This document shows positions 30,001-32,796 of a DNA stretch of 64,000 bases, piece after piece. The position numbers are program-made. Numbering within the stretch: position 1 is the first letter of the stretch; each line of letters starts with the position of its first letter. The stretch comes from Escherichia coli (GTDB taxonomy: Bacteria; Pseudomonadota; Gammaproteobacteria; Enterobacterales; Enterobacteriaceae), in the NCBI RefSeq assembly GCF_044647545.1, contig NZ_CP172818.1, one strand, 5' to 3'.

Positions 30001-32796
30001 AGACCCTGAAGTAATCCGGTAGCAATCATCCCCCAACGTGTTGCGGGTGAAAGTTCAACGCTATCCATGTTAGTTATCCAGAATCAAAAAGTGGGTTAAT
30101 TATCGCATCCGGGCCGTAGTATTTTGCTTTTTTCAGAAAATAATCAAAAAAAGTTAGCGTGGTGAATCGATACTTTACCGATTGAATTTGCATCAATTTC
30201 ATTCAGGAATGCGATTCCACTCACAATATTCCCGCCATATAAACCAAGATTTAACCTTTTAAGAACATTTTCCACACCTAAAATGCTATTTCTGCGATAA
30301 TAGCAACCGTTTCGTGACAGGAATCACGGAGTTTTTTGTCAAATATGAATTTCTCCAGATACGTAAATCTATGAGCCTTGTCGCGGTTAACACCCCCAAA
30401 AAGACTTTACTATTCAGGCAATACATATTGGCTAAGGAGCAGTGAAATGCGCGTTAACAATGGTTTGACCCCGCAAGAACTCGAGGCTTATGGTATCAGT
30501 GACGTACATGATATCGTTTACAACCCAAGCTACGACCTGCTGTATCAGGAAGAGCTCGATCCGAGCCTGACAGGTTATGAGCGCGGGGTGTTAACTAATC
30601 TGGGTGCCGTTGCCGTCGATACCGGGATCTTCACCGGTCGTTCACCAAAAGATAAGTATATCGTCCGTGACGATACCACTCGCGATACTTTCTGGTGGGC
30701 AGACAAAGGCAAAGGTAAGAACGACAACAAACCTCTCTCTCCGGAAACCTGGCAGCATCTTAAAGGCCTGGTGACCAAACAGCTTTCCGGCAAACGTCTG
30801 TTCGTTGTCGACGCTTTCTGTGGTGCGAACCCGGATACTCGTCTTTCCGTCCGTTTCATCACCGAAGTGGCCTGGCAGGCGCATTTTGTCAAAAACATGT
30901 TTATTCGCCCGAGCGATGAAGAGCTGGCAGGTTTCAAACCAGACTTTATCGTTATGAACGGCGCGAAGTGCACTAACCCGCAGTGGAAAGAACAGGGTCT
31001 GAACTCCGAAAACTTCGTGGCGTTTAACCTGACCGAGCGCATGCAGCTGATTGGCGGCACCTGGTACGGCGGCGAAATGAAGAAAGGGATGTTCTCAATG
31101 ATGAACTACCTGCTGCCGCTGAAAGGTATCGCTTCTATGCACTGCTCCGCCAACGTTGGTGAGAAAGGCGATGTTGCGGTGTTCTTCGGCCTTTCCGGCA
31201 CCGGTAAAACCACCCTTTCCACCGACCCGAAACGTCGCCTGATTGGCGATGACGAACACGGCTGGGACGATGACGGCGTGTTTAACTTTGAAGGCGGCTG
31301 CTACGCAAAAACTATCAAGCTGTCGAAAGAAGCGGAACCTGAAATCTACAACGCTATCCGTCGTGATGCGCTGCTGGAAAACGTCACCGTGCGTGAAGAT
31401 GGCACTATCGACTTTGATGATGGTTCAAAAACCGAGAACACCCGCGTTTCTTATCCGATCTATCACATCGAAAACATCGTTAAGCCGGTGTCCAAAGCGG
31501 GCCACGCAACTAAGGTTATCTTCCTGACTGCTGATGCTTTCGGCGTGCTGCCGCCGGTTTCTCGTCTGACTGCCGATCAAACCCAGTACCACTTCCTCTC
31601 TGGCTTCACCGCCAAACTGGCTGGTACAGAGCGCGGCATCACCGAACCGACGCCAACCTTCTCCGCCTGCTTCGGCGCGGCATTCCTGTCGCTGCACCCA
31701 ACTCAGTACGCAGAAGTGCTGGTGAAACGTATGCAGGCGGCAGGCGCGCAGGCGTATCTGGTTAACACCGGCTGGAACGGCACTGGCAAACGTATCTCGA
31801 TTAAAGATACCCGCGCCATTATCGACGCCATCCTCAACGGTTCGCTGGATAACGCAGAAACCTTCACTTTGCCGATGTTTAACCTGGCGATCCCAACTGA
31901 ACTGCCGGGCGTAGACACGAAGATTCTCGATCCGCGTAACACCTACGCTTCCCCGGAACAGTGGCAGGAAAAAGCTGAAACGCTGGCGAAACTGTTTATC
32001 GACAACTTCGATAAATACACCGACACCCCAGCGGGTGCCGCGCTGGTAGCGGCTGGTCCTAAGCTGTAATCAGCTGATATCTCATTGACCCCTTATCCAA
32101 ACGGATAAGGGGTTTTTTTATCTAATTAGCTACCAATATGTACACGTACACTTATAATTATCAATAGACCGCAGGATGCATTATTTCACCTTTATTGAAC
32201 TACAAAGATTTAGCAAACGCCGCCATTATTGCTACCTGATGATATTCCCTTTTCAGGAACTACTCATTCAAAATCCCACCGCCGACATTACGCAGCACAG
32301 GCAGTTTTAAAAAAATTCCCCGGAACCCCCCGAAAGGGGAAAGGCACGGAAAATTTTAAAAAAACAAAAACCCAACAATTTCCTTTATTTAACCAAAAAA
32401 AAAAAAAAAAAAATAAAAAAAAAAAAAAAAAAAAGGAAAAACTCCCCGGGAGCGCTTTTGAACCCCACAAAACCCCCCAGGCCGAAAAAACAAAAGGGGA
32501 GAAAAAAAAAAAAAAAAAAAATTTTCCTCCTCTCCCCCCCGCAGGAAAAAAAAAGGGAAAGAAAAAAAAAGGAAGAAAAACCGCCCACACCGAGCCCCCC
32601 CATTCAAAAAAAAGAAAAAAAAACGGCGGGAAACAGGCCGCCGGCAGTCCCCCCGGGGGGGCCCGGAAAAAAAAAAGAAAAAACCCCCCCCCCCCCCCCC
32701 AGAGCCCCACAAAAAATTTGCAAGCGAATCCTTTCATTATCAATCAATTGAAAACAATCTAAAAACGGGAGGCACCTTCACCTCCCGTTTTATTTA

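What the first reader, a model, noticed from the sequence alone, without database searches (positions are those of the whole stretch)
32121..32760. About 640 bp of anomalous, homopolymer-dominated sequence between the pckA and envZ terminators
Seen: pckA ends at 32069 with a textbook terminator (32089-32119), and envZ ends at 32794 with its own hairpin (32765-32788). Between them lies about 640 bp whose core (about 32300-32700) has A runs of 19-20 nt, a C run of 17 nt and G7/C7 blocks; every frame yields only Lys/Pro/Gly-rich pseudo-ORFs, e.g. track ORF 32229..32762. The first about 170 bp (32121-32290) and last about 60 bp have normal complexity. Established, from memory of K-12: pckA and envZ converge across a spacer of under 100 bp. 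Inference: most likely a base-calling or assembly artefact, or non-native inserted filler. A degraded real insertion is less likely: there is no transposase, no terminal inverted repeats and no repeat-spacer periodicity.
Basis: partly seen in the sequence, partly recalled or inferred. Interest (0 to 1): 0.6.

Follow-up and report, generated by a model that had tools for sequence, protein, structure and literature searches.

The report
Garbled toxin-antitoxin genes: assembly artefact
The odd homopolymer stretch is a computationally blurred copy of an ordinary two-gene toxin-antitoxin module found in a quarter of E. coli genomes; it most likely arose when the genome was built on a K-12-like reference that lacks the module, so it is a data-quality defect rather than biology.

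Summary
In detail: 9 of the 11 homopolymer runs of 8 nt or more in the 64-kb window lie in 32395-32700. It is neither filler nor decayed DNA. It is a corrupted copy of a RelE-type toxin plus NadS antitoxin module that lies intact between pckA and envZ in 1,329 of 5,426 complete E. coli genomes. The window's flanks are 100.000% identical to relatives that carry the intact module. Errors start 73 nt into the insert, grow steadily from left to right (identity 1.00 down to 0.45) and stop abruptly at 32717. The damaged interval (32073-32716) is exactly what a long-read aligner would score as one 738-nt insertion relative to a K-12-type backbone. An unrelated RefSeq genome (BS-04) is garbled at the same locus with the same right boundary. 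Simulating unaligned, left-justified stacking of slightly noisy reads reproduces the decay and the 19-22-nt runs. Within the window, insertions relative to K-12 behave by size: 68 nt or less is clean, 738 nt is garbled, and a 2,852-nt segment present in the close relatives checked is missing. Verdict: a reference-guided consensus artefact over a known, real gene pair. Low biological interest, but useful as a data-quality flag.

The parts
30447..32069 (+). pckA (phosphoenolpyruvate carboxykinase), intact
   Evidence: ORF listing. 100% identical to FDAARGOS_497 pckA.
32087..32121 (+). pckA intrinsic terminator (12-bp stem plus T run), intact. It lies inside the block that K-12 lacks.
   Evidence: Terminator scan. 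Identical in the intact relatives.
32073..32762 (+). Block with no K-12 counterpart, replacing K-12's 43-nt spacer core: pckA terminator, toxin-antitoxin promoter region, RelE-type toxin gene and nadS antitoxin gene
   Evidence: Window versus K-12: 691 nt against 43 nt. Annotated as a RelE/ParE toxin plus NadS in relatives.
32073..32144 (+). Error-free lead-in of the aligner-defined insertion (first 72 nt)
   Evidence: The first discrepancy with the intact allele is at 32145.
32145..32716 (+). Corrupted interval. Identity to the true sequence falls steadily from 0.97 to 0.45. The stretch is contracted to about 87% of true length and dominated by A and C runs.
   Evidence: It ends exactly at the last base of the 738-nt insertion predicted by the aligner emulation.
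32183..32457 (+). Remnant of the RelE-type toxin gene (true product 105 aa, Pfam PF06296). The start codon is destroyed by loss of its G, and the frame is lost within about 45 codons.
   Evidence: Coordinate mapping, translations, Pfam hit on the intact copy.
32509..32762 (+). Remnant of the nadS antitoxin gene (true product 98 aa). Only the last 46 nt and the stop codon are correct.
   Evidence: Mapping. NCBIfam NF041265 on the intact copy. The pseudo-ORF ends ...QANPFIINQLKTI*, as true NadS does.
32717..32762 (+). Perfect tail of the block. An aligner pairs these bases with the K-12-type spacer, so they sit in reference-anchored columns.
   Evidence: 100% identity resumes at 32717. Emulated alignment.
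32762..32791 (-). envZ intrinsic terminator, intact
32794..34146 (-). envZ, intact
2586..2615 (+). Second private anomaly of the same assembly: five single-base losses and then about 37 nt missing, in the yhfL terminator and yhfL-yhfS spacer. This is the junction where K-12 has the 5.25-kb frl operon and this lineage does not.
62001..62002 (.). Junction where 2,852 nt are missing (a hypothetical gene plus two PstS-family genes, FDAARGOS_497 1,058,801-1,061,652). The junction is exactly collinear with K-12.
28270..28337 (+). Control: a 68-nt insertion relative to K-12 that is reproduced without error
   Evidence: insertion relative to K-12. (100% identical to FDAARGOS_497).

Best explanation
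The strain really carries the common 2-gene toxin-antitoxin module (a PF06296 RelE-type toxin and a NadS HTH antitoxin) between pckA and envZ. The deposited sequence of that module is a consensus artefact. The genome appears to have been built by laying long reads on a backbone with K-12-type structure, which lacks the module. An aligner then represents the module as one 738-nt insertion running from just after the pckA stop to the base before TTTGCAAGCG. Inserted bases were apparently stacked by their offset from the left anchor without being realigned to each other. Small indel errors in the reads put them progressively out of register, so each consensus column reports the locally commonest base. 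The result is an error-free start, a steady left-to-right decay, long A and C runs, contraction, and an instant return to perfect sequence where reference-anchored columns resume. Shown here: the identity of the underlying genes, the collinear blur, the coincidence of boundaries with the predicted insertion, the recurrence in a second assembly, and the size-dependent fate of insertions. Inferred: the use of a K-12-type backbone and the kind of consensus software.
For: 1. Identity of the underlying sequence. The intact module lies at this site in 1,329 of 5,426 complete genomes, all on the chromosome. The toxin matches PF06296 and the antitoxin matches NF041265.
2. Clean flanks. The flanks are 100.000% identical to module-bearing relatives over 29.5 kb and 16.7 kb.
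3. Retained signal. The garbled core keeps a collinear signal of the true sequence, with z = 11.5-17.8 against block shuffles. A Gaussian local-majority blur of the truth fits it better than the truth itself does, 68 to 128 for the window and -14 to 100 for BS-04.
4. Shape of the damage. Identity falls from 1.00 to 0.45 and then jumps back to 1.00. The errors are almost all deletions.
5. Boundaries. Emulated minimap2-type two-piece scoring against the K-12 allele gives a single insertion at L001 474-1211, which is window 32073-32716. For the other lineage it gives YA-1 10672-11411. The window is perfect from 32717 and BS-04 from YA-1 11412.
6. Simulation. Left-justified stacking of 40 reads with 0.6-1.2% indels gives a clean lead-in of 34-190 nt, decay to 0.6-0.7, runs of 19-22 nt from a truth whose longest run is 7, and A enrichment. 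The simulated consensus is closer to the observed sequence (NW 256-303) than the truth is (245).
7. Size dependence. The window is collinear with K-12. Insertions of 4, 11 and 68 nt are clean, 738 nt is garbled and 2,852 nt is absent, with a junction found in no complete genome above 93.8% identity.
8. Second assembly. BS-04's other patches sit at K-12 structural junctions (gsp, chiA). BS-04 is 4.52 Mb against 4.84-4.86 Mb for its 99.9%-identical relatives, and it runs in the MG1655 orientation.
Against: No reads and no assembly-method field were available, so the pipeline is inferred. The simple simulation does not reproduce the 13% contraction, the C>T bias, or the fact that the first eight errors all hit G on the + strand. 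BS-04 patch 1 starts as poly-G junk with no clean lead-in. The bfr-bfd region, only 77% identical to K-12, is correctly reconstructed in BS-04, which is more than a naive reference consensus would be expected to manage. The backbone need not be K-12 itself, only a genome with the same structure at these loci.
Confidence: 0.85

Rival explanations
1. Random local junk. A low-quality stretch of a single raw long read, or the tail of a one-directional gap-closing read (Sanger-like loss of resolution), was left unpolished in an otherwise de novo assembly.
For: The decay runs in one direction and is strand-asymmetric: in the early zone 15 of 48 G are lost against 0 of 58 C, p = 1.7e-6. The damage looks like a blur with contraction. 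The rest of the window is error-free.
Against: A random event would not recur at the same locus with the same right boundary in an unrelated strain. It would not coincide to the base with the aligner-defined insertion relative to K-12. It does not explain the missing 2,852-nt segment, the anomaly at the frl junction, or BS-04's patches at the gsp and chiA junctions.
Confidence: 0.08
2. A property of the DNA at this locus in these strains, such as dense local modification or damage, makes it refractory to base-calling, so independent projects fail at the same place.
For: Two unrelated assemblies fail at the same locus. The earliest errors are specific to G.
Against: 1,329 other assemblies read the same sequence cleanly. 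The boundaries are explained by alignment geometry. Both assemblies have further anomalies at unrelated loci that share only a structural difference from K-12. The true sequence is only mildly AT-rich, and equally AT-rich stretches in the window are clean.
Confidence: 0.03
3. The sequence is real: a toxin-antitoxin module destroyed in vivo by rapid decay or targeted hypermutation.
For: The remnant is collinear with the intact module. Toxin-antitoxin genes are often pseudogenised.
Against: There are zero substitutions in 46 kb of flank, against about 45% divergence with 94 nt lost over a 644-nt interval. The changes replace bases by the locally commonest base while preserving position, which no known mutational process does. 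No other genome carries this sequence. BS-04's version is a different blur of its own allele.
Confidence: 0.01
4. Non-native filler, or deliberately inserted or synthetic sequence.
For: Composition is extreme and there is no coding potential.
Against: The stretch keeps a highly significant positional signal of the native module (z up to 17.8). Native sequence runs seamlessly into both ends.
Confidence: 0.01

Closest known systems
Chromosomal type II toxin-antitoxin module in the E. coli pckA-envZ spacer: RelE/ParE-family toxin (WP_000493756.1, Pfam PF06296) plus NadS-family HTH antitoxin (WP_000650976.1, NCBIfam NF041265)
   Same: Same site, same flanking terminators and same gene order. The first 72 nt and the last 46 nt are identical, and the core is collinear.
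   Different: In the window neither gene can be translated. The toxin start codon is lost and 94 nt are missing. The difference lies in the deposited sequence and almost certainly not in the organism.
Reference-guided (mapping-based) consensus genomes, which keep the reference's structure and lose or distort sequence absent from the reference (my own knowledge of the method class, not a cited source)
   Same: The window is collinear with K-12. SNP-level sequence is correct at 2-12% divergence. Short insertions are kept, a mid-sized insertion is blurred, a multi-kb insertion is dropped, and in BS-04 the genome is shorter than those of close relatives.
   Different: The software is unknown. The blurred insertion, as opposed to Ns, omission or a clean local assembly, is an unusual outcome. 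Its base-specific bias is not explained by the simple stacking model.
RefSeq assembly GCF_044648255.1 (E. coli BS-04, NZ_CP172819.1)
   Same: Same locus, same right boundary, same left-to-right decay and the same G-first error hierarchy.
   Different: It is a different lineage, with its own allele and flank SNPs, and a different garbled string (68% identical in the core). It has extra poly-G junk at the gsp junction.

Membership tests
Type II toxin-antitoxin module (RelE/ParE toxin + NadS/HTH antitoxin) | Toxin ORF with a RelE-type fold or domain | tested here: not met
   The intact copy in relatives matches Pfam PF06296, E = 1e-5. The window's copy yields only a 44-codon remnant with a destroyed start codon. 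The feature is met by the underlying real locus but not by the deposited sequence.
Type II toxin-antitoxin module (RelE/ParE toxin + NadS/HTH antitoxin) | Adjacent small HTH antitoxin ORF | tested here: not met
   The intact copy matches NF041265 NadS at 75.1 bits, above the cut-off of 60. In the window only the last 15 codons and the stop codon survive.
Type II toxin-antitoxin module (RelE/ParE toxin + NadS/HTH antitoxin) | Same genomic position and flanks as the intact module in conspecific genomes | tested here: met
Reference-guided consensus artefact (unaligned long insertion) | The damaged interval equals the interval an aligner scores as one insertion relative to the backbone | tested here: met
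   The predicted insertion is window 32073-32716, and all errors lie in 32145-32716. BS-04 is perfect from YA-1 11412, and its predicted insertion ends at 11411.
Reference-guided consensus artefact (unaligned long insertion) | Error grows with distance from the left anchor and resets at the right anchor | tested here: met
   Identity profiles in both assemblies, reproduced by simulation.
Reference-guided consensus artefact (unaligned long insertion) | The assembly is collinear with the backbone. Other insertions are clean, garbled or lost according to length. | tested here: met
   4, 11 and 68 nt are clean, 738 nt is garbled and 2,852 nt is missing. No clean long insertion was found in 64 kb.
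Reference-guided consensus artefact (unaligned long insertion) | Raw reads contain the intact module, and the assembly method names a reference | not testable with these tools
   No reads or assembly metadata were available. The source record of the window was not found.
Insertion sequence / transposon remnant | Transposase ORF and terminal inverted repeats | tested here: not met
   No such ORF. The intact module has only short chance repeats.
Natural simple-sequence contingency locus or structured RNA | Homopolymer tract or RNA motif conserved in relatives | tested here: not met
   Relatives have no run longer than 7 nt here. No Rfam hit reaches its gathering score.

The most novel reading that the evidence does not exclude
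The pckA-envZ toxin-antitoxin module has some physical property in certain strains, such as dense strand-specific guanine modification, that defeats sequencing. Under this reading the match to alignment geometry is a coincidence.
Probability: 0.02. Interest if true: 0.6.

Novelty: not a real feature. Interest (0 to 1): 0.12.

Why it matters
Biologically it does not matter: the locus is an ordinary, already annotated toxin-antitoxin pair. It matters for data quality. It shows that at least one RefSeq "complete genome" (BS-04), and the genome this window comes from, behave like K-12-structured consensus sequences. In them, mid-sized strain-specific insertions are blurred into pseudo-sequence and larger ones are lost without trace. 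Such records would understate accessory gene content, create false pseudogenes and hypothetical proteins (for example WP_400165612.1), and feed artefactual low-complexity DNA into pangenome analyses or sequence-model training sets. The signature described here gives a simple screen: one-directional decay that ends at the point where homology to the reference resumes.

Tried and rejected
1. Exact-product look-ups of the 177-aa and 44-aa pseudo-ORFs, to find the source record. Nothing was on record.
2. Literature on BS-04 or its accession. Nothing was found. The NadS literature is minimal.
3. AT-richness or coverage dropout as the common cause. The true sequences under the patches are only at the 3rd-13th GC percentile, and equally AT-rich stretches in the window are clean. 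It is a weak correlate and was rejected as the explanation.
4. A "scar" allele in E. coli that keeps the module's ends but lacks its core, which could have set the boundaries. The left spacer occurs only in the 1,330 carriers and the right 54 nt only inside nadS. Rejected.
5. True homology between K-12's spacer and the nadS 3' end. It is not significant: local score 16 against a shuffle mean of 16.4. The aligner pairs the two anyway, because that is cheaper than extra gaps.
6. Internal direct or inverted repeats in the module that might drive a deletion or misassembly. Only 9-13-nt chance repeats were found.
7. A Sanger-like or single-read tail. It fits the one-directional decay and the G-first loss, but not the recurrence or the geometry. 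It is kept as a minor rival.
8. Rfam families and promoter or terminator signals inside the garble. These are chance hits generated by the homopolymers.
9. My first aligner emulation on the FDAARGOS allele used mismatched ends and gave a spurious two-gap solution. It was corrected with matched flanks.

Full report
**Observation**

Nine of the 11 homopolymer runs of 8 nt or more in the whole 64 kb lie in 32395-32700: A19, A20, A20, C17 and several A8-A10. In 200-nt windows the fraction of bases in runs of 4 or more reaches 0.62-0.67, against a median of 0.045. Trinucleotide entropy drops to 3.9, against a median of 5.64. AT skew reaches +0.8. The K-12 spacer is indeed 75 bp.

**What lies underneath**

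A megablast of 31900-32950 against 5,426 complete E. coli genomes showed that many strains carry two annotated genes between pckA and envZ: a "type II toxin-antitoxin system RelE/ParE family toxin" and "nadS".
- The intact 743-nt block is present at 95% identity or better in 1,329 genomes, always on the chromosome.
- The toxin (105 aa) matches Pfam PF06296. The antitoxin (98 aa) passes the NCBIfam NadS equivalog cut-off.
- A three-way alignment shows the window's sequence tracking this module base for base at first, then degrading.
- The toxin start codon loses its G (ATGTTC becomes ATTTC), and the frame is lost within about 45 codons.

**Why it is not real divergence**

Outside this locus the window is 100.000% identical to FDAARGOS_497 and its clone-mates, over 2614-32100 and 32717-49378, and again over 47978-62001 apart from a strain-specific IS1. 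Zero substitutions in tens of kb of flank cannot be reconciled with about 45% divergence and a net loss of 94 nt inside a 644-nt interval.

The garbled core still carries a highly significant collinear signal of the true sequence. The global alignment score is 68, against -84 ± 13 for block shuffles, giving z = 11.5-17.8. The changes are of a peculiar kind: bases are replaced by the locally commonest base while position is preserved. For example, CCTAAAAATGAACAGGATGATTTAACAGAAGAACAAAGAAAGG (43 nt) becomes CC-A19-T-A20-GG (44 nt), with the lone T where TTT was. A Gaussian local-majority blur of the intact sequence fits the window better than the intact sequence does, 68 to 128.

**Shape of the damage**

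Identity per 40 columns runs 1.00, 0.97, 0.97, 0.95, 0.88, 0.82, 0.80, 0.62, 0.57 and on down to 0.45, then jumps to 1.00 at 32717. Nearly all indels are deletions in the window. The first eight errors are all losses of G on the + strand. In the early zone 15 of 48 G are lost against 0 of 58 C, p = 1.7e-6. T is lost next, then C, and A is kept best.

**A second case**

One RefSeq genome, BS-04 (NZ_CP172819.1, broiler stool, Indonesia), is garbled at the same locus. It belongs to a different lineage. Its nearest relatives, such as YA-1, carry the intact module, and BS-04 differs from YA-1 by only 2 SNPs in 21.6 kb of flank. It shows the same left-to-right decay, the same G-first hierarchy and, strikingly, the same right boundary. 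Perfect sequence resumes at TTTGCAAGCG in both assemblies.

**Finding the cause**

Several ideas failed.
- AT-richness is only a weak correlate.
- No E. coli allele keeps the ends of the module without its core.
- K-12's spacer has no significant similarity to the nadS end.
- The module has no notable internal repeats.

The productive clue was that every anomaly in either assembly sits at a structural difference from K-12.
- The window has a second private anomaly at 2586-2615, where K-12 has the frl operon.
- BS-04 has poly-G junk starting at the exact base where its homology to K-12 ends, next to the gsp cluster.
- BS-04 also has a scrambled 57 nt inside the 64-nt junction where K-12 has chiA.

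I then emulated a long-read aligner's two-piece affine scoring for the true alleles against the K-12 allele. With matched flanks, both alleles give a single long insertion. For the window's allele it is L001 474-1211 (738 nt), which is window 32073-32716. For YA-1 it is 10672-11411 (740 nt). The 43-nt K-12 spacer is paired by default with the last 46 nt of the block. The window is perfect from 32717 and BS-04 from YA-1 11412. All 570-odd nt of damage lie inside the predicted insertion and none lie outside.

**Mechanism**

If inserted bases are stacked by their offset from the left anchor without mutual realignment, read indel errors make the register drift as a random walk. Column-wise consensus then becomes a low-pass filter whose width grows to the right and resets at the next anchored column.

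I simulated this with 40 reads, 0.6-1.2% indels per base, and plurality voting. It gives a clean lead-in of 34-190 nt (observed 73 nt in the window and about 100 nt in BS-04). It gives decay to 0.6-0.7, homopolymer runs of 19-22 nt from a truth whose longest run is 7, and A enrichment. Its consensus is closer to the observed sequence (NW 256-303) than the truth is (245). It does not reproduce the 13% contraction, the C>T bias or the G-first loss, so the real consensus rule is more complicated. This part is unexplained.

**Falsification tests**

If the backbone had K-12 structure, the window should contain no clean long insertion relative to K-12. It does not. The window is fully collinear with K-12. 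Insertions of 4, 11 and 68 nt are reproduced exactly, and the 738-nt one is garbled.

The model also predicts that larger insertions are lost. The window lacks a 2,852-nt segment (a hypothetical gene and two PstS-family genes). FDAARGOS_497 carries it, ECONIH1's coordinate spacing shows it too, and the other listed 100%-identical relatives have the same PstS-family gene next to glgP. The junction at 62001|62002 has ST648-type SNPs on both sides but K-12's structure. The segment has no flanking repeats and no homology to K-12. No complete genome has that junction at more than 93.8% identity.

BS-04 is 4.52 Mb, against 4.84-4.86 Mb for relatives that are 99.9% identical to it, and it runs in MG1655's orientation and gene order.

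**Comparison and verdict**

The underlying feature is a known, annotated toxin-antitoxin pair. The homopolymer sequence is not a biological feature. The alternatives "filler" and "no real insertion" are wrong, and the suggested amplicon-size test would have misled.

What remains inferred is the identity of the pipeline. What remains unexplained is the base-specific bias. The residual non-artefact readings (refractory DNA, real hypermutation) together deserve only a few percent.

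Noticed in passing
window 2586-2615: A second private anomaly: five single-base losses (four A, one T), one A-to-G change, and about 37 nt missing, in the yhfL terminator and yhfL-yhfS spacer relative to all ST648-type relatives. It lies at the junction where K-12 has the 5.25-kb frl operon. 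No complete genome shares this variant.
   Followed up: yes
window 62001|62002: A 2,852-nt segment is absent (a hypothetical gene plus two PstS-family phosphate-binding protein genes, FDAARGOS_497 1,058,801-1,061,652). FDAARGOS_497 carries it and ECONIH1's coordinate spacing shows it too. The junction is K-12-collinear, has no flanking repeats, and is not found at more than 93.8% identity in any complete genome.
   Followed up: yes
window 28270-28337: A 68-nt insertion relative to K-12, between hslO and yhgE, is reproduced without error. It served as a size control for the artefact model. Its nature (possibly a REP-like element) was not examined.
   Followed up: partly
window 55127-55136 (versus FDAARGOS_497 L007 7160-7926): FDAARGOS_497 has an IS1 between rtcA and rtcB that the window lacks. 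ECONIH1's coordinate spacing shows it lacks the IS1 as well, so this looks like a genuine strain difference.
   Followed up: partly
L008 (BS-04, NZ_CP172819.1) 8999-9108, 9112-9307 and 10174-10230: BS-04 has poly-G junk (G25, G23) replacing about 400 nt upstream of and inside an A24 prepilin peptidase gene, which is annotated as frameshifted and incomplete. Scattered single-base losses follow just downstream. A scrambled 57 nt lies in the bfd-tuf spacer. All sit at junctions where K-12 has the gsp cluster or chiA.
   Followed up: yes
L005 / L002 (BS-04) CDS ACIA66_RS16950, WP_400165612.1: RefSeq annotates a 53-aa "hypothetical protein" that is simply the surviving N-terminal remnant of the garbled toxin gene. 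It is an artefactual protein record.
   Followed up: partly
L005 20943-22667 and 33991-34869 (BS-04); L006 (YA-1) same genes: yhgE and rpnA carry internal stop codons in both BS-04 and its relative YA-1. These are real lineage pseudogenes and not assembly errors.
   Followed up: partly
L001 559-567 and 1231-1239 (intact module; window 32157-32165 and 32736-32744): A 9-nt direct repeat, ATTATCAAT, flanks the toxin-antitoxin genes, overlapping a palindrome upstream of the toxin. It could be an operator or an insertion footprint. Not pursued.
   Followed up: no
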